Shown: piece after piece, positions 14,951 to 62,952 of the stretch | Layout: every line of letters begins with the position of its first letter | Numbering within the stretch: the stretch's first letter is position 1 | Sequence record: MT932213.1 | From: Escherichia phage VEc74 | Reading direction: 5' to 3' (one strand) | Length of the DNA: 64,000 bases | Translations under genes and position numbers: made by a program | Notes under the pieces: generated by a model | Told to the model about the DNA's origin: nothing | The model's input: only the letters and a program-made list of their open reading frames with translations | Databases searched by the model: none

Positions 14951-15196
14951 TTATTCACCAGTTACTTTCCACAAATCTTCATTTGCAGCAATCCATGCAG
15001 CACGTTGATTTTCTTCATATACTGTAGAATATGCTGCTTTTTCTGAAGGGAATATCTGGTAATGAGCACCAGAAATTTTGTGAACGTCAGAATAAAGAGG
15101 GAAAGCTACAGAAATTTCCTTTCCTTCAATTTTCTTATTTCCATCTAATTTCTGCTCAAATGTTTTGATATTAACATAACCGCGAGTACTAGCCAT
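14951..15196 (-). CDS. soc: small outer capsid protein Soc
   Basis: 81-aa ORF between the mod region and gene 56, with a late promoter and terminator. Confidence 0.75.
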   Translation of the reverse strand: MASTRGYVNIKTFEQKLDGNKKIEGKEISVAFPLYSDVHKISGAHYQIFPSEKAAYSTVYEENQRAAWIAANEDLWKVTGE

Positions 15197-15226: not shown

Positions 15227-15234
15227 TATTTATA
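15227..15234 (-). promoter_or_regulatory. late promoter (TATAAATA)
   Basis: exact TATAAATA on the minus strand about 30 nt upstream of the soc ATG. Confidence 0.6.
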
Positions 15235-15868: not shown

Positions 15869-16069
15869 ATGGTACAAAAATTAATGGCACTTGTTAATGC
15901 CATCAAAGGTAATAAAAAGCGTATAGCTTTTACTATTTCTGCTATGGTAGGAATTTTACTCTGGAACTTTATTTTATCACCTGTTGCAATTGCGCATGGT
16001 ATTAATATTCCAGTAGTTACTCTTGATACATTCGTAGATTTAGCATTTGCTTTAGTTGGGTTAATTTAA
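15869..16069 (+). CDS. small hydrophobic protein encoded on the opposite strand
   Basis: 66-aa ORF with two predicted TM segments, AAGGAGG SD before the ATG, no minus-strand ORF in the 56-61 intergenic interval. Confidence 0.35.
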   Translation: MVQKLMALVNAIKGNKKRIAFTISAMVGILLWNFILSPVAIAHGINIPVVTLDTFVDLAFALVGLI

Positions 16070-17094
16070 ATCTTAGCATATTTAGATAACCGCATTTTAG
16101 CCATCAACCCCTGGGCAATATTATTTTTCATATATTCCATAATTTGTTCAGGGGTTGCACCTTCCTTTCTAATCATATCATTAACATCTTTTGATTTCCA
16201 GGGAGATTTATCCCAAAACATAACCCTTTCTCCTGCATCAACTAATTTAGTCATTCGCTTAATAGTGTCAGGATGACGAGGTTCATTATCTAAAACCCAC
16301 ACTCGTCTATCTTTAAATGGAACAATTTCTAGGTCTAATTGACCACCCGTAATAGCTATACCATTTTCAATAAAAAGTGAATCTATAGGTCCTTCTAGAA
16401 CATATACATCGCCATCTTTAACTCGTTCGACTCCATAGATTTTTGTTGCCTCAGGATAAGCTTTGATGGTGATATATTTTTGAGGAGCATCTTTCTTTAA
16501 TGCACGTCCTTGAAAAGACTCAGCTTTTCCACTAGCATTATAAATTGGAATAACGAGACGAGGCTCAGGTATTTCCTTTTTATATGTTCCCGGTGCTATG
16601 CTATTAACTAATTTAGGCCATTCAGTTGTAAACCAAAGATATTTCCATTTATCCTTTGGAATACAACGAGCTTTTACGTATTTTATAATTGGATGGTCTT
16701 CCGTCAGTTTATCTAATCTAACACATGACGGAAGAGATTTAATTATTTTCTTCTCAGGTTGTTTAGGAAGTTCTTTAGGTTTTTCTACTGGACGACTTTT
16801 ACCTTTTTCTTTTCTTATTTCAAAGATATACTCACGATATAAATCAGGTTCAAACTCCTTTAAATATATTCCGATTGGTGCATGATAGTTACAGTTATAA
16901 CAATGAATATTTCCTTCATTATTATCACCATAATACCATCCACGAGCTTTATTCTGGTCGGTTTTTGAATCTCCACAAACAGGGCATCTAAACCGTAATT
17001 TAAAAGTTGAACTATTATTTACTTGTGTGAATTTAGGTAAATGAGCTAATGCACGATACGCAAACTCATTATCAATCCAAGGTATTGATGACAT
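16066..17094 (-). CDS. 61: DNA primase gp61
   Basis: 342-aa ORF with an N-terminal zinc ribbon (CPVCGDS...HCYNC) and a TOPRIM-like core. Confidence 0.85.
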   Translation of the reverse strand: MSSIPWIDNEFAYRALAHLPKFTQVNNSSTFKLRFRCPVCGDSKTDQNKARGWYYGDNNEGNIHCYNCNYHAPIGIYLKEFEPDLYREYIFEIRKEKGKSRPVEKPKELPKQPEKKIIKSLPSCVRLDKLTEDHPIIKYVKARCIPKDKWKYLWFTTEWPKLVNSIAPGTYKKEIPEPRLVIPIYNASGKAESFQGRALKKDAPQKYITIKAYPEATKIYGVERVKDGDVYVLEGPIDSLFIENGIAITGGQLDLEIVPFKDRRVWVLDNEPRHPDTIKRMTKLVDAGERVMFWDKSPWKSKDVNDMIRKEGATPEQIMEYMKNNIAQGLMAKMRLSKYAKI

Positions 17095-17096
17095 TT

Positions 17097-17261
17097 TTAC
17101 TCTTCTTTTTCTTTAGATTCCTCTTTTTTCTTTTTAGGAATCTGTTCAGGACCTTTATTTACTACAGCGCCTGACGTTGTTCCGGTAGAGATATTTTCAG
17201 GATTACCACCTGAATCTCCAGCGACCATATCTTCTTTGATAAATTCTTTATATGTTTTCAT
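17097..17261 (-). CDS. small protein with a capsid-targeting-sequence-like N-terminus
   Basis: 54-aa ORF MKTYKEFIKE..., GAGG RBS, start abuts the stop of the upstream gene; hand-translated and below the ORF-track cutoff. Confidence 0.4.
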   Translation of the reverse strand: MKTYKEFIKEDMVAGDSGGNPENISTGTTSGAVVNKGPEQIPKKKKEESKEKEE

Positions 17262-17262
17262 A

Positions 17263-17889
17263 TTAACCTCTATTCATAAAAGCATTAAAAATTTGGTCAT
17301 CAATAGAAACATTTACTTTAGACTGTTTTTCTGATGGTAATTCATATCCACATATTACAATTTTGTGATCAATATCAAAATACACAGAAGCAATATGATT
17401 AATGATGTTTTCAGTAAAGTCTAAATCAACATCAATATCTTTTTGACCACAGCCCAAAGGATAAATAATGCGAGTAATTCGATTATCTTTAACAAAGATT
17501 CCACCGACATACTCTGTGCTGCGTTTAAAGTCTACACGCCGACGAAATGAAAAATATTCAGGCTCTTTATGAGCTCGGCTCATAGGGCACAACGAATAAC
17601 TAGAATAAGAGATGTCAAATCCTACGCCTTCAATATGAACTAAATTGTCATGATTAAACCAATTATAATCATATGCCAAGTCCATTAGATTGTCATATGT
17701 GAAAGGCACCGGATTAACATCATTGGTCACAAGCATATAATTGGCAACTGCTATAATTTCATTATTTTTAACGAATACAAACCGTGATTGATGCGAATGA
17801 CCTGGACCTGCGTTTTCACGATTAATGATATAACACTGGGCACCTTTATATTTGTACGTGTCTTTACACTTGTGCATTTGATAAAGCAT
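17263..17889 (-). CDS. hypothetical protein (61.1/61.2 position)
   Basis: 208-aa ORF. Confidence 0.5.
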   Translation of the reverse strand: MLYQMHKCKDTYKYKGAQCYIINRENAGPGHSHQSRFVFVKNNEIIAVANYMLVTNDVNPVPFTYDNLMDLAYDYNWFNHDNLVHIEGVGFDISYSSYSLCPMSRAHKEPEYFSFRRRVDFKRSTEYVGGIFVKDNRITRIIYPLGCGQKDIDVDLDFTENIINHIASVYFDIDHKIVICGYELPSEKQSKVNVSIDDQIFNAFMNRG

Positions 17890-18182
17890 TATTCACCTAC
17901 TACTTCAGCGATGATATTTTTATTATTGAAGTTTTTATCGCAATACAGAACATAATTATACTGCATTACACCACCAGACTTAAGTTGTTTTTGCACTTCA
18001 GCTTTCATTTCAGGACGATCGCGCTCAACGATATTCATAATATCTGCTTCAATTTGAGTTTCAACCTCAGTCTGATCAGCAGTCATAGACCATTCGCACA
18101 AATCTTTATCATAACCTGCCATAGCAGGCTGAGCAGCACAAGAAGCTAAAGCAAAAATTGTAGCAAAGATAAATTTTTTCAT
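17889..18182 (-). CDS. sp: Spackle periplasmic protein (superinfection exclusion)
   Basis: 97-aa ORF with a signal peptide at the 61.3 position; T4 Sp is 97 aa. Confidence 0.6.
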   Translation of the reverse strand: MKKFIFATIFALASCAAQPAMAGYDKDLCEWSMTADQTEVETQIEADIMNIVERDRPEMKAEVQKQLKSGGVMQYNYVLYCDKNFNNKNIIAEVVGE

Positions 18183-18210
18183 GATAATCTCCTCAGTAGT
18201 TTATGTTTAT

Positions 18211-18242: not shown

Positions 18243-18539
18243 TTATTTTAAAACTTTTGCATAATCACATGTTACAAACTGTTTCTCTAGCTTGACGATT
18301 TTACGAAAGTATCTTTTGCATTGACGAATCTGCCTCTTCGTAGGACGTACAGCAAACTTAATAAATTCCACTCGACCAAATGGAGGACTTTCTTCTGCTG
18401 GAATATCTAACACCAATTCCCACGTATCTGCAATAAGTGCTTTGAATTGCGTATTTTTCCTGACGTTATACGGAGTAGGTTTAAATAAAACAATATGCAT
18501 ATTATCCTCGGCAATCCACTTCACATACTTTCTTGTCAT
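18243..18539 (-). CDS. hypothetical protein (61.4 position)
   Basis: ORF overlapping the dmd 3' end; start taken at the first ATG. Confidence 0.4.
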   Translation of the reverse strand: MTRKYVKWIAEDNMHIVLFKPTPYNVRKNTQFKALIADTWELVLDIPAEESPPFGRVEFIKFAVRPTKRQIRQCKRYFRKIVKLEKQFVTCDYAKVLK

Positions 18540-18684
18540 CAATGAAAGCTTTAACTAATGCTTTATTAACTTCAGCATATTGAGTAGTAGCCCATTGAAC
18601 GTCATCTTTCATCATTGTGATTTCTTTAGTAAACATGCTTTCATTCTTAAACCACCCCATAAAAACTACCTTTACCAATTCCAT
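18502..18684 (-). CDS. dmd: Dmd (discriminator of mRNA degradation)
   Basis: 60-aa ORF immediately downstream of gene 41; size and position match T4 61.5/dmd. Confidence 0.55.
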   Translation of the reverse strand: MELVKVVFMGWFKNESMFTKEITMMKDDVQWATTQYAEVNKALVKAFIDDKKVCEVDCRG

Positions 18685-18713: not shown

Positions 18714-18743
18714 ACTATACCATAGTCTTGTCAGCTTGTAAAC
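18714..18743 (-). promoter_or_regulatory. T4-type early promoter
   Basis: GTTTAC, 17 bp, TGGTATAGT; the -35 overlaps the gene 41 stop codon. Confidence 0.5.
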
Positions 18744-20170
18744 TAAAATTTTAATTCATTTGCCAAAGCATCTAACTGAGCTCGAGCTGATTCGTTTCTT
18801 TGATAGCGATTCTGTTCAGCCTGAATCTGTTGTGAACCTGCTACTTCGTTCACTTCAGTTGGAGTAGAATCTTGTTCAATTTCTACCCATTTCTGATTTC
18901 CTTTTTGAACACCCATCAAAAACTTATTCCATTTATTCTTATCACCATATCGTGATTTGATTTGCTTAATGAGCTGTTGTTCAGCAGCTGCTAGCTCCTC
19001 GGTTTCAATGACCGCAAGCATAAAATCAGCTGTTGCTGGAAGACCAGCAGATTCTGCAATATCGCTCATGTTAACATCAGAAGAATCCCAAGCTTGTTTG
19101 CCGACCTGTGCTGCAGTCCAAAGAACAGTTTCGGTTTCAACAGCCAAAGCACGCAATTCCTCTGCAATAGCTTTAACAGTTGTGTAACTATTTTCTGAAT
19201 AAACTCTGATGCGGCAAGATTTACAAATACCTAGATAGTCGACAATAATGATTGTTGGAACAAAATTCTTTTTGAGCTTCAATTCGTTTAAAAGTGATCG
19301 AAATGTATTAGCATCTGCTCCGCCAGTAGGATACTGTTTAACGATTAAACGACCGAGAGTAGATTTCTCACGCCATTTTTCCATTTTTCCTTTATACTCA
19401 GCGTAAGAAATATGCCCATCATCAATGTCATCAAGAGAAACATCAAGCATATTAGCATCAATACGTTTAGCACAGACTTCTTCTGCCATTTCCATGGAAA
19501 TGTAAAGAACATTATGTCCGAGCTGCAAATAATCTGCTGCCAATGAACACAATCCTAATGACTTACCAACGTTAACGCCAGCCATTAAAACGTTCAGTGT
19601 TCCAGTCTCAGCTCCGCCTTTAGTAATTTTGTTTAGAATTCTGAGTTTAAATGGAACCTTACGAGCTTTATTCATATAAGATAGCCAACGTGCTTCGTAG
19701 TCATCCATCCAATCATGACCAACGTAGCTATCAAATGAAATAGATAATGCTTGGCGCATGATGTCAGGAATAGCACCAACGTCCGGCATTTTCTTATTTC
19801 GTTTTTCCGGAGGAAGCTCAGCATTAGTTTGAATTTCGATTATTTTAGACGTAGCATTAAACATCGCCCTTTGCTGAACATATTTTTCTGTTTCTTTTAT
19901 TAACCAACTGTGGTCTTCTGGAGAATCAGCTAGTTTTGAAATAAGTGTTTTTACACCAGAATATTCTGTTTCAGTAAATGAACTATTTTCTAATGCAACA
20001 TTTAACGCATTAATAGATGGAACGCTATGATACTCATTGACATGAGATTTAATTAATTTGAATGTATTTTTAGCTGGACCACTTTCAAAATATTCTGAAT
20101 CCATATATGGCCAAACTTTTGAAAAATAAGCTTGATCAAATATGAGATGAGAAAGAATAATTTCTACCAC
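18743..20170 (-). CDS. 41: replicative DNA helicase gp41 (DnaB-like)
   Basis: 475-aa ORF with Walker A GVNVGKS and DnaB-family motifs. Confidence 0.9.
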   Translation of the reverse strand: MVEIILSHLIFDQAYFSKVWPYMDSEYFESGPAKNTFKLIKSHVNEYHSVPSINALNVALENSSFTETEYSGVKTLISKLADSPEDHSWLIKETEKYVQQRAMFNATSKIIEIQTNAELPPEKRNKKMPDVGAIPDIMRQALSISFDSYVGHDWMDDYEARWLSYMNKARKVPFKLRILNKITKGGAETGTLNVLMAGVNVGKSLGLCSLAADYLQLGHNVLYISMEMAEEVCAKRIDANMLDVSLDDIDDGHISYAEYKGKMEKWREKSTLGRLIVKQYPTGGADANTFRSLLNELKLKKNFVPTIIIVDYLGICKSCRIRVYSENSYTTVKAIAEELRALAVETETVLWTAAQVGKQAWDSSDVNMSDIAESAGLPATADFMLAVIETEELAAAEQQLIKQIKSRYGDKNKWNKFLMGVQKGNQKWVEIEQDSTPTEVNEVAGSQQIQAEQNRYQRNESARAQLDALANELKF

Positions 20171-55200: not shown

Positions 55201-55242
55201 ATATACCCCTTTAGTTAGATAAACCTATTTATAACTTTTGCA

Positions 55243-60414: not shown

Positions 60415-60888
60415 TTATTTGAACGATTTAACGTACTGAATAGAACCTTTACTATTCACAAAGGCAATTTTACCATTTTTGTTATACATAGTAGCAGTAC
60501 GTTGATAGCCATAAGTTTGCTTACCAGATTGATAACCAACTAATGCAAAATTATCTTCACCCATTTTATTCTGTTTAGCGCGAATGCGTTCATGACCATG
60601 TGCCATAAGAACCTTAGCATCACCAGTTGCAATGGATCGACGAGTTTTTTCATCTTCAACTGTATTAACAAAGTCGTCAAATGAATCAAATTTAGCATGA
60701 GATTTATTATACAGTTTTCCATCTACTGCATAATTATATCCTTGTACATCCATCTCAACTTCTGTACCATCATCTAATACAGCAGTAATTTTCTGTCCTT
60801 TTTTAAATTTCAAAAGATCAGTAAAAGATTCAGCAATAATTTGAGAATTAATAGCTGCCTCAGTAATAAATTCTTGATATGTTTTCAT
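60415..60888 (-). CDS. internal protein with capsid targeting sequence (IPII-like)
   Basis: 157-aa ORF starting MKTYQEFITE, the CTS shared by T4 internal proteins. Confidence 0.6.
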   Translation of the reverse strand: MKTYQEFITEAAINSQIIAESFTDLLKFKKGQKITAVLDDGTEVEMDVQGYNYAVDGKLYNKSHAKFDSFDDFVNTVEDEKTRRSIATGDAKVLMAHGHERIRAKQNKMGEDNFALVGYQSGKQTYGYQRTATMYNKNGKIAFVNSKGSIQYVKSFK

Positions 60889-60945
60889 GTATATCCTTTA
60901 AATGTAAATAGTTTTATTCTTTAAGTTTTGGACAATTCATGCGTG

Positions 60946-60977
60946 TGAATTGTCCGTTTCTATATTTACCCATTACC
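60946..60977. repeat. 32-bp direct repeat, copy 2, preceded by a 10-bp stem hairpin
   Basis: TGAATTGTCCgTTTCTaTATTTACCCATTACC with GGACAATTCA/TGAATTGTCC hairpin at 60930-60955. Confidence 0.6.
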
Positions 60978-60996
60978 AGGTTCGAACTCGGCTTTA

Positions 60997-61561
60997 TTAA
61001 GAATTACCGCGGGCTGCATTAGCAACGGCGTAAGCGTACTGAACATTAGCGTCTTTAAACGTACCTTTAGAGGTATCTAGTTCTGCCTTAAAGCCACCTT
61101 TAGTCATAACCTCGGCGAATTCTTTACGGAAAGCCATTGCATCAAGACTTCTCCATGATGATTTGTGCTTGGCGAATTCAAGACCAGCGTAGTTGACAGC
61201 CTTAGCTAATTTATTATCAATAACCCATTTACCAGCTTTAGGCACAAACACCGGGCCTTTCTGTTTAGAGAACAGTTTTAAATTCCAGCGACGAAGGTCA
61301 CCGTCGGCTTTAACAAAAGCTGCGTCTAAGTTACTAGCAACAACATCCTGAATATGGCCAAATTTAAGCCCATCAACTTCAATATTTAGATCGGTACGCC
61401 AGCGAAGTCCTTCCCAAGCGAAAGCTTTAAAGTCGGAAGCCTTTGTAGCTAAGTACCGTTCAATAGGAGCCGTTTCCCGATCGATAGGTCCACTCATCTT
61501 TATTAATGCCTTTGGCCTTTTCCACAGAAGCTTCAGCGATAAATTCTTTATACGTTTTCAT
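60997..61561 (-). pseudogene. internal protein III-like gene with its CTS leader in a different reading frame
   Basis: 33-codon ORF MKTYKEFIAEASVEKAKGINKDEWTYRSGNGSY (61460-61561) overlaps the 166-aa body ORF (60997-61497) in another frame; the junction lies at a G-run. Confidence 0.45.
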
Positions 61562-61577
61562 GTGTTTCCTTTAATTT

Positions 61578-61895
61578 TTATTCTTTAGGGAAGTTTTTAG
61601 AATATGCATCATAAAGCTTATTTCCAATACGGCGGAAAACTCTAGCCGCAAAACGATTTTCTGGGTTTTTAATCATGATTTGCATCATATAAGTACCCGC
61701 GTCAGAAAGAGCTTCTTCATAGTACCCATTAATTTCTTTAAGAGTCCTACGTTTACCACCAGGACCATCAACAGTGATTTTCCATTTACCTGTAGAAGTG
61801 CGACTTGGCGGCTCAACTTGTTCAATCCAGATATAACCACCTTCTACACGTTGTCCTGCAGCAGATTCTGCAATAAATTCTTGATAGGTTTTCAT
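61578..61895 (-). CDS. internal protein with capsid targeting sequence
   Basis: 105-aa ORF starting MKTYQEFIAE. Confidence 0.6.
   Translation of the reverse strand: MKTYQEFIAESAAGQRVEGGYIWIEQVEPPSRTSTGKWKITVDGPGGKRRTLKEINGYYEEALSDAGTYMMQIMIKNPENRFAARVFRRIGNKLYDAYSKNFPKE

Positions 61896-61983: not shown

Positions 61984-62952
<969 letters not shown>

What the first reader, a model, noticed from the sequence alone, without database searches (positions are those of the whole stretch)
17097..17261. 54-aa ORF with a capsid-targeting-sequence-like N-terminus beside the primase gene
A short ORF between gene 61 and the 208-aa ORF begins MKTYKEFIKE. This closely matches the MKTYQEFIAE leader found on the internal-protein ORFs in this window (60415-60888, 61578-61895) and known from T4 internal proteins, including an I-x-E site of the kind cut by the prohead protease. 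The rest is a low-complexity Gly/Ser/Lys/Glu-rich peptide. It has a GAGG RBS and its ATG abuts the upstream stop codon. This would be a head-packaged peptide encoded in the early replication gene block.
Basis: partly seen in the sequence, partly recalled or inferred. Interest (0 to 1): 0.7.

Follow-up and report, generated by a model that had tools for sequence, protein, structure and literature searches.

The report
Capsid-protein mimic peptide with head-targeting leader
This 54-codon gene (T4 gene 61.1) is real and conserved. It encodes a head-targeting-type leader and a protease cut site, followed by a copy of the short "N-fist" segment of the major capsid protein, so it is probably a small peptide processed in the phage head, which nobody has yet tested.

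Summary
The ORF at 17097-17261 (- strand) is T4 gene 61.1 in a T4-like phage. It has a GAGG ribosome-binding site, and its ATG lies one base after the stop of 61.2 (adfA). Its first ten residues, MKTYKEFIKE, match the internal-protein capsid targeting sequence (CTS) at 8 of 10 positions. No other non-ip start codon in the window exceeds 4 of 10.

Residues 2-38 are homologous to gp23 residues 57-93, which span the maturation cleavage junction and the N-fist of mature gp23. A search of all PDB sequences returns only gp23. Glu10 aligns exactly with gp23 Glu65, where the gp21 prohead protease cuts.

The family occurs across T4-like phages, always between genes 41 and 61. Members are either short forms or about 155-aa long forms carrying an N-terminal domain. 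A hydrophobic-x-Glu junction precedes the conserved core in nearly all members. The core is under strong purifying selection (dN/dS 0.04-0.15). In five related clades an exact late promoter (TATAAATA) sits 21-29 nt upstream of the start codon; the T4 genus has none.

Best reading (confidence about 0.5): a prohead-targeted pro-peptide cut by gp21. Packaging itself is untested. The gene is dispensable in a laboratory host.

The parts
17097..17261 (-). Gene 61.1: 54 codons plus a TAA stop (17097-17099).
   Evidence: ORF list and sequence. PHROG 1823, E 7e-34. Annotated as 61.1 in T4T and RB32. dN/dS over the whole gene is 0.06-0.15 against other genera.
17267..17270 (-). Shine-Dalgarno GAGG, five nucleotides upstream of the ATG. 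It lies inside the last codons of 61.2.
   Evidence: Read directly from the sequence.
17232..17261 (-). Codons 1-10, MKTYKEFIKE: a CTS-type leader ending in the I-K-E gp21-type site (codons 8-10 = 17232-17240). The predicted cut is after Glu10.
   Evidence: 8 of 10 identical to MKTYQEFIAE and the only non-ip start in the window above 4 of 10. It fits the natural ip-leader consensus MK[TM]Y.EF[IL].E. Glu10 aligns with gp23 Glu65. The L/I-X-E motif is from PMC9026906.
17148..17231 (-). Codons 11-38, DMVAGDSGGNPENISTGTTSGAVVNKGP: homologue of the N-fist of mature gp23 (gp23 residues 66-93).
   Evidence: BLASTP: 43% identity, ungapped, E 1e-8. hhalign: 96.5% probability, E 8e-10. The PDB-wide search returns only gp23. 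Core (codons 11-42) dN/dS is 0.04-0.15. AF2 predicts no stable fold.
17100..17147 (-). Codons 39-54, EQIPKKKKEESKEKEE: a charged, Lys-rich tail. Its sequence varies but it is Lys/Arg-rich in nearly all family members.
   Evidence: Alignments. The T6-type frameshifted variant keeps a Lys-rich tail.
17092..17099 (-). TAA-AA-ATG junction with gene 61 (primase, 16066-17094). It could allow translational coupling and is specific to the T4 genus.
   Evidence: Sequence. In the other genera inspected, the 30 nt after the stop carry an inverted repeat (a possible hairpin, not folded here).
17263..17889 (-). Upstream neighbour 61.2 (adfA). Its stop abuts the 61.1 ATG, and it occupies the position where other genera have a late promoter.
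   Evidence: PHROG 3781. The adfA name is from Srikant et al. 2022. Promoter comparison.

Best explanation
gp61.1 is a small pro-peptide of the phage head pathway. Three steps are inferred, none demonstrated:
1. The N-terminal decapeptide MKTYKEFIKE acts like the CTS of the T4 internal proteins and carries the peptide into the assembling prohead core.
2. The prohead protease gp21 cuts after Glu10 (I-K-E|D). This is the position that aligns with the gp23 maturation cut at Glu65.
3. The cut releases a 44-residue, intrinsically disordered peptide (DMVAGDSGG...): a paralogue of the gp23 N-fist followed by a Lys-rich tail. It would stay in or on the head.

Shown here: the leader match, the aligned cleavage motif and its conservation, the homology to gp23, purifying selection, and late promoters in related genera.

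The ancestral form is an approximately 155-aa protein in which a 110-aa domain sits where the leader is. In the T4 genus and several others that domain has been replaced by a 10-25-aa leader. This is what one would expect if the upstream part is a removable targeting region. What the mature peptide does is not known.
For: Leader:
- It is a unique outlier in the window.
- It fits the natural variation of ip leaders at all constrained positions.
- Any protein fused to the CTS is packaged and cut once after it (PMC8442874; PMC3012670).

Cleavage site:
- gp21 cuts after L/I-X-E (PMC9026906).
- Among 139 distinct family junctions, a Glu lies 2-4 residues before xGD in all of them, and P3 is L/I/F/M/V in 113.
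- Some long forms read YLTEAE-VAGDSGG, almost the same as gp23 FLTE|AEIGGDHG.

Homology to the gp23 junction and N-fist:
- BLASTP E 1e-8.
- hhalign 96.5% and 96.9% probability.
- The PDB-wide hmmsearch returns gp23 only.
- The gp23 N-terminal region is disordered inside the prohead and orders on the outer surface only after expansion (PMC9958956). This matches the disorder predicted for the 61.1 module.

Timing:
- An exact TATAAATA lies 21-29 nt before the ATG in 15 of 27 loci, representing 5 clades.
- The motif is depleted in the window: 4 sites against 11 expected, one before soc and two before e.
- In T4 the ip genes are also early-RNA genes.

Selection and spread:
- Core dN/dS is 0.04-0.15 with synonymous sites saturated.
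- More than 1400 phage records carry a match, across Enterobacteria, Aeromonas, Acinetobacter and Vibrio phages.
Against: - There is no direct evidence that the peptide is in heads or is cut.
- The protein received no class in the T4 infected-cell proteome. This is weak evidence, because gp56 also received none.
- In the T4 genus the gene has no late promoter and its RNA is classed early.
- The leader is not conserved as a CTS across the family. Phages with the 61.1 leader MKSFKEVMNE still have MKTYQEFIAE on their ip genes, and an RB49-like phage has MIGFKQFVEENKLKE.
- The gene lies in the early 41-61 block next to anti-toxin genes, not in an ip locus.
- The mature T4-type peptide has a net charge of about -2, unlike the basic internal proteins (counted from the sequence).
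- Knock-down has no fitness effect in a laboratory host (PMC11879866), so it is not needed for head assembly.
- The N-domain of the long form is well conserved, which is more than a simple targeting signal would seem to need.
Confidence: 0.5

Rival explanations
1. A cytoplasmic mimic of the gp23 maturation junction and N-fist that is not packaged. It could act as a decoy or antagonist for a host factor that recognises the N-terminal part of the major capsid protein, such as a capsid-sensing defence. Alternatively it could be a competing substrate or regulator of gp21.
For: The homology to gp23 is firm. In T4 the gene sits in what Srikant et al. call an anti-TA island: dmd, tifA and adfA are its neighbours, and they name other genes there as candidates. 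Its RNA is early in T4. It is dispensable in a laboratory host, as accessory counter-defence genes usually are.
Against: No known sensor targets gp23 residues 57-93. From my own knowledge, the Gol peptide that activates Lit lies just after this segment. This reading does not explain why the T4-type leader fits the CTS consensus so closely. It does not explain why the part upstream of the conserved Glu is freely exchangeable between a 110-aa domain and a 10-aa leader. The island context holds only for T4-type genomes; in Aeh1 the gene lies directly between 41 and 61.
Confidence: 0.2
2. A small accessory factor of the replication module. The Lys-rich tail would bind DNA or the primase-helicase, and the gene would be co-inherited and co-expressed with genes 41 and 61.
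For: The gene lies between 41 and 61 in every T4-like genome examined. It is translationally juxtaposed to gene 61 in the T4 genus and has a Lys/Arg-rich tail.
Against: Late promoters directly upstream in five clades do not fit a replication role. The only detectable homologue is a capsid protein segment. The coupling to gene 61 is absent outside the T4 genus.
Confidence: 0.1
3. The peptide has no function of its own. The ORF would serve only to bring ribosomes to the poorly initiated gene 61, or it would be a decaying fragment of a gene 23 duplication.
For: The TAA-AA-ATG junction with gene 61. The protein was not classified in one proteome. Knock-down gives no phenotype.
Against: Amino-acid sequence is under strong purifying selection with saturated synonymous sites. 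The family is conserved in genera where the intergenic sequence before gene 61 carries an inverted repeat (a possible hairpin) in place of the TAA-AA-ATG junction. It spans the whole T4 superfamily.
Confidence: 0.04

Closest known systems
[quoted passage not shown]
   Same: An N-terminal decapeptide of the form MKTY.EF[IL].E ending in a gp21-type L/I-x-E site. They are small, dispensable in laboratory hosts, and transcribed early in T4.
   Different: - 61.1 is encoded between 61.2 and 61, not in the ip loci beside e or 57B.
- Its cargo is a 44-residue disordered peptide homologous to gp23, not a folded basic protein.
- Its leader is not conserved as a CTS across the family.
- Packaging is untested.
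N-terminal region of the major capsid protein gp23 (end of the propeptide, Glu65 cleavage site, N-fist of gp23*)
   Same: Ungapped alignment of 61.1 residues 2-38 with gp23 residues 57-93 at 43% identity. The cleavage Glu is in register. Both share the GD.G....IA.G.TSGAV...GP signature.
   Different: 61.1 has no HK97-fold body. Where gp23 continues as AVMGMVRRAIPN, 61.1 has a Lys-rich tail. 61.1 has GDSGG where gp23 has an almost invariant GDHGY. It is an old paralogue, not a recent copy.
Long-form gp61.1 (PHROG 2086) of Mosigvirus, CC31, Aeh1, KVP40, RB43 and Acinetobacter phages
   Same: The same genomic position and the same C-terminal module, about 75% identical between the T4 type and Mosigvirus. 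The same Glu junction.
   Different: The long form carries a conserved, mostly helical N-domain of about 110 aa with unknown fold. The T4 type has only ten residues there.
Ejection or head proteins of giant phages (SPN3US, phiKZ) with long N-terminal propeptides removed by the prohead protease
   Same: The architecture of a propeptide, then a cut after Glu, then the mature part. Propeptide length ranges from about 10-20 to more than 100 residues (PMC5694885), which parallels the short and long 61.1 forms.
   Different: No sequence relationship. Those proteins were found in virions by mass spectrometry, and 61.1 has not been.

Membership tests
CTS-bearing T4 internal proteins | N-terminal decapeptide matching the capsid targeting sequence MKTYQEFIAE. 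| tested here: met
   8 of 10 identical. It fits the consensus MK[TM]Y.EF[IL].E derived from 27 ip-locus ORFs. It is a unique outlier among 1623 starts.
CTS-bearing T4 internal proteins | A gp21 cleavage motif L/I-X-E at the end of the leader. | tested here: met
   I8-K9-E10. The motif is from PMC9026906. The junction is conserved in the family.
CTS-bearing T4 internal proteins | Physically incorporated into the prohead core and present in mature heads. | not testable with these tools
   No virion proteome that lists the protein was found. It was not classified in the infected-cell proteome.
CTS-bearing T4 internal proteins | Cleaved by gp21 in vivo. | not testable with these tools
   Only the sequence motif and its alignment with the gp23 cut site are available.
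CTS-bearing T4 internal proteins | Encoded in the polymorphic ip loci. | tested here: not met
   The gene lies between 61.2 and 61. The ip-type ORFs of this window are at 60415-61895.
CTS-bearing T4 internal proteins | Similarity to an internal-protein family beyond the leader. | tested here: not met
   PHROG 5341, 'internal virion protein', matches residues 1-25 only, at E 0.076.
Major capsid protein gp23 family (Pfam PF07068, HK97 fold) | Significant sequence similarity to gp23. | tested here: met
   Met, but only for gp23 residues 57-93. With the long form the match extends to gp23 33-102.
Major capsid protein gp23 family (Pfam PF07068, HK97 fold) | Possession of the capsid-protein body (HK97 fold) and a match to the Pfam model. 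| tested here: not met
   The protein is 54 aa and has no Pfam match at E up to 10. It is therefore not a capsid protein, although some database records call homologues 'major capsid protein'.
gp61.1 family (PHROG 1823 short form; PHROG 2086 long form) | A profile match and a position between genes 41 and 61. | tested here: met
   PHROG 1823 E 7e-34; PHROG 2086 E 2.6e-16 over its C-terminal part. Synteny.
Anti-toxin proteins of the T4 dmd-tifA-adfA island | Inhibition of a host toxin or defence system. | not testable with these tools
   Only adjacency is shown. No sequence relationship to Dmd, TifA or AdfA was looked for or seen.

The most novel reading that the evidence does not exclude
gp61.1 could be a free-standing copy of the capsid-stabilising N-fist. 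It would be carried into the prohead by a removable leader or domain and released by the same gp21 cut that frees the N-fist of gp23. It would then dock on the expanding shell. Possible docking places are N-fist sites that have no gp23 donor, next to the gp24 pentons and the portal. It might also compete with gp23 N-fists and so tune expansion, Soc binding or head stability. That would be a capsid protein segment acting in trans as a separate gene product.
Probability: 0.12. Interest if true: 0.85.

Novelty: new variant of a known kind. Interest (0 to 1): 0.6.

Why it matters
The T4 head is one of the best-studied assembly systems, and its list of gp21 substrates and CTS-bearing proteins is regarded as essentially complete. 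This gene is conserved across the T4 superfamily and duplicates the exact maturation junction and N-fist of the major capsid protein. It carries a CTS-type leader in T4 and a late promoter in sister genera. If it is processed in the head, it would add a new substrate to that list. It would also suggest that the CTS itself mimics the end of the gp23 propeptide.

It gives a direct handle on what the N-fist does during capsid expansion. On a practical level, it shows that database labels of 'major capsid protein' on these 50-160-aa ORFs are misleading.

Tried and rejected
- Pfam scan of the 54-aa protein: no match.
- AF2 model of the long form (pLDDT 61) and Foldseek against the PDB: nothing below E 3.7, so the fold of the N-domain remains unknown.
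- AF2 model of the short form: only a helix over residues 4-13, pLDDT 59.5.
- Co-variation of the 61.1 leader with the phage's own ip leaders:
  - In the RB49-like phage kaaroe, no ip-type ORF shares the leader. The nearest is a 78-aa ORF annotated as UvsW helicase, at 6 of 10.
  - In the first 50 kb of Klebsiella phage EI nothing shares MTLLEKYKQSLSE. I did not fetch the rest of that genome.
  - In Dhaka-type contigs the ip leaders stay canonical while the 61.1 leader has drifted, so there is no strict co-variation.
- Co-variation of the 61.1 core with the phage's own gp23 N-fist: abandoned, because the gp23 N-fist is nearly invariant over 68 contigs and the test has no power.
- The idea that the 26 of 30 nt identity with ip leaders proves recombination: rejected as independent evidence. 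The shared residues use low-degeneracy codons in an AT-rich genome. MAFFT also aligns the leader with the KEIFKELPLFE segment of the long form.
- Literature: no paper in the library discusses the function of gp61.1. The T4 genome review PMC150520 is not held.
- A first attempt to fetch gp23 loci with alignment A4 failed for lack of conserved columns. It succeeded with A6.

Full report
**What the window is and what the ORF is**

The window is a Tequatrovirus. The stretch 16900-18200 is 98.2% identical to T4 and 99.8% identical to phage FL23. On the minus strand the gene order is:
- 41 (18743-20170)
- a 60-aa ORF at the position of dmd (18502-18684)
- an ORF at the position of 61.4/tifA (18243-18542)
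- sp (17889-18182)
- 61.2/adfA (17263-17889)
- the ORF in question (17097-17261)
- 61, the primase (16066-17094)

The ORF is annotated as 61.1, a hypothetical protein, in T4T and RB32. It matches PHROG 1823 end to end (E 7e-34).

**Checking the observation**

- The sequence gives GAGG at 17267-17270.
- The stop of 61.2 is at 17263-17265, and the ATG of 61.1 is at 17259-17261.
- The 61.1 stop, two bases, and then the ATG of gene 61 follow at the other end.
- I compared the first ten residues after each of the 1623 start codons that have at least 30 codons downstream with MKTYQEFIAE. All score 4 or fewer identities except four: the three ip-type starts at 61895, 60888 and 61561, and this ORF at 8 of 10.
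- ORFs in ip loci of other T4-like contigs carry natural variants of the leader: MKTYKEFIAE, MKTYQEFITE, MKMYQEFIVE and MKTY[SNA]EFL[STN]E. The constrained pattern is therefore MK[TM]Y.EF[IL].E. MKTYKEFIKE fits it at every constrained position.

**The body of the protein is a copy of a capsid-protein segment**

Several public records label homologues as 'major capsid protein', so I compared the ORF with T4 gp23.
- Residues 2-38 align without gaps to gp23 residues 57-93, at 43% identity and E 1e-8.
- A profile of short forms against a gp23 N-terminal alignment gives 96.5% probability, E 8e-10.
- A profile of long forms gives 96.9% probability. That alignment extends back into the gp23 propeptide, covering gp23 33-102.
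- Unbiased searches of all PDB sequences with either profile return T4 gp23 and nothing else (E 8.8e-7 and 1.2e-5).

In the alignment F7-I8-K9-E10|D11 lies on F62-L63-T64-E65|A66. By established knowledge, that is the bond gp21 cuts to make gp23*. The next 25 or so residues of gp23* are the N-fist. This segment is disordered inside the prohead. After expansion it moves to the outer surface, touches four subunits and helps form the Soc site (PMC9958956).

So the Gly/Ser/Thr-rich core is not low complexity. It is a conserved paralogue of that segment. AlphaFold predicts no stable fold for it in either the short or the long form, which fits a segment that orders only on a partner.

**The family**

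- A profile search of 1.84 billion representative proteins finds 50 relatives.
- tblastn finds matches in about 1500 phage records from enterobacterial, Aeromonas, Acinetobacter and Vibrio T4-like phages. Some of the weakest may be gp23 itself.
- Members are of two kinds. Short forms are 50-70 aa. Long forms are about 130-165 aa (PHROG 2086), with a conserved N-domain preceding the same C-terminal module.
- The long form is the '61.1' of Mosigvirus, CC31, Aeh1, KVP40, RB43 and Acinetobacter phages, and it always lies between 41 and 61.
- The Mosigvirus module is about 75% identical to the T4-type peptide. The T4-type gene therefore looks derived, with the N-domain replaced by ten residues.

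Across 139 distinct junctions, a Glu lies 2-4 residues before the xGD core in every case. The P3 residue is L, I, F, M or V in 113. Some long forms read YLTEAE-VAGDSGG or LLGEAEVAGDSGYNAQN, nearly the same as gp23. gp21 cuts after L/I-X-E (PMC9026906). What is conserved, then, is a gp21-type site, an N-fist-like core and a Lys/Arg-rich tail. What lies upstream of the site is exchangeable.

**It is a real coding gene**

Against other genera, synonymous sites in the core (codons 11-42) are saturated while dN is 0.06-0.22, giving dN/dS of 0.04-0.15. The tail keeps its composition rather than its sequence. The T6-type variant has a frameshifted tail that is still Lys-rich.

**Timing**

An exact TATAAATA, the T4 late-promoter consensus by established knowledge, lies 21-29 nt before the ATG in 15 of 27 IMG/VR loci. 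These represent five clades. In those 5-kb loci the motif occurs on the coding strand at most once more, about 2 kb downstream, probably before soc (not checked). Near-matches occur in three further clades.

In this window the motif is depleted: 4 sites against 11 expected. Three of the four stand before soc and before the lysozyme gene e. This supports reading an exact match as a real late promoter.

The T4 genus has no such promoter. Here 61.2 abuts the ATG, and T4 61.1 RNA is classed early (PMC9697503 supplement). The same data set classes ipI, ipII and ipIII as early-RNA, late-protein genes. Early transcription therefore does not argue against a role in the head.

**What experiments say**

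- The T4 infected-cell proteome did not classify gp61.1. It did not classify gp56 either, so this says little.
- In the CRISPRi-ART screen, knock-down of 61.1 had no fitness effect (score -0.84, p 0.93; PMC11879866 supplement). The guide sequences in that data set show that T4 itself has MKTFKEFIKE.
- No paper in the library discusses the function of the protein.
- Srikant et al. describe this part of the T4 genome as an anti-toxin island and name other genes there as candidates.

**Interpretation**

gp61.1 is a pro-peptide that enters the prohead by its leader. In long forms the N-domain would do this job. gp21 cuts it at the position equivalent to the gp23 cut, and the mature product is a free N-fist-like peptide with a charged tail.

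Arguments in favour:
- The leader fits the CTS consensus.
- Any protein fused to a CTS is packaged and cut once (PMC8442874).
- The junction is conserved and in register with the gp23 cut.
- Sister genera have late promoters.
- The pro-region is exchangeable. This parallels the 10-20-residue CTS of T4 and the propeptides of more than 100 residues in giant phages (PMC5694885).

Arguments against:
- No physical evidence exists.
- The leader has drifted in some clades whose ip genes keep the canonical CTS.
- The gene lies in an early gene block.
- The mature peptide is not basic.
- The N-domain of the long form is better conserved than a mere signal would need to be.

I put this reading at about 0.5. 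The rivals are:
- a cytoplasmic decoy or regulator that mimics the gp23 junction (0.2);
- a replication accessory protein (0.1);
- no peptide function at all (0.04, largely excluded).

**Novelty**

The gene is annotated but uncharacterised. Annotation pipelines have picked up the resemblance to gp23, but it is not discussed in any paper I could search. I did not find the CTS-type leader on this gene described anywhere. If true, it would be a new variant of the known class of gp21-processed head proteins. Its unusual feature is that the cargo is a paralogue of a capsid-protein segment.

The boldest reading the data allow is a trans-acting N-fist that docks on the shell. I give it about 0.12.

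Noticed in passing
window 61460-61561 (-) and 60997-61497 (-): A CTS-bearing internal-protein gene (PHROG 5341, 192-aa profile) is split. A 33-aa ORF, MKTYKEFIAEASVEKAKGINKDEWTYRSGNGSY, covers profile positions 1-31. A separate 166-aa ORF covers positions 32-192. This is a frameshift: a pseudogene, a sequencing error or a slippage site.
   Followed up: partly
window 15227-15234, 55226-55233, 62492-62499, 62505-62512 (all -): There are only four exact TATAAATA sites in 64 kb, against about 11 expected from shuffles. One lies just before soc (14951-15196) and two lie before the lysozyme gene e (61984-62478). The late-promoter octamer seems to be purged from this early region except where it is used.
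   Followed up: partly
L001 925-2490 (T4T gene 23) and kaaroe gene 23 (MN850574 10806-12404, -): The last ten residues of the gp23 propeptide resemble the CTS (MKTYQEFIAE|A): AQAFGSFLTE|A in T4 and VEAFGGFIAE|A in the RB49-like phage. The CTS may imitate the end of the capsid-protein propeptide.
   Followed up: partly
L014-L025, L034-L036 (about 2463-2487 in each locus): An exact late-promoter octamer lies 21-29 nt before the 61.1 homologue in five clades. In L018 it is followed by a short inverted repeat around the ribosome-binding site, and the 30 nt after the stop carry an inverted repeat without a T-run in the loci inspected; neither was folded.
   Followed up: partly
proteins P0040, P0054, P0058 (metagenomic): In these proteins the 61.1 module and its Lys-rich tail are followed by a second leader-like motif (M.E..FK.F[VM]E) and an extra domain of about 90 aa. 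They look like two leader-plus-cargo units in series, or two genes read through.
   Followed up: no
protein P0002 (T6 type); corresponds to window 17097-17135: In T6-type phages a frameshift in the A-rich 3' end gives a 62-aa product with a different but still Lys-rich tail. That product must overlap the start of gene 61.
   Followed up: no
kaaroe MN850574 2605-2841 (-): A 78-aa ORF annotated as 'ATP-dependent DNA helicase' (UvsW) starts MISFKRFLVEAA. This resembles the RB49-type 61.1 leader MIGFKQFVEE at 6 of 10 positions. Such N-termini are therefore not confined to candidate head proteins.
   Followed up: no
window 17263-17889 (-) and public records: Several GenBank and UniRef records name 61.1 homologues 'major capsid protein' or 'major capsid domain-containing protein', for example Klebsiella phage EI 16013-16180. 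These labels come from the 37-residue similarity and are misleading.
   Followed up: yes
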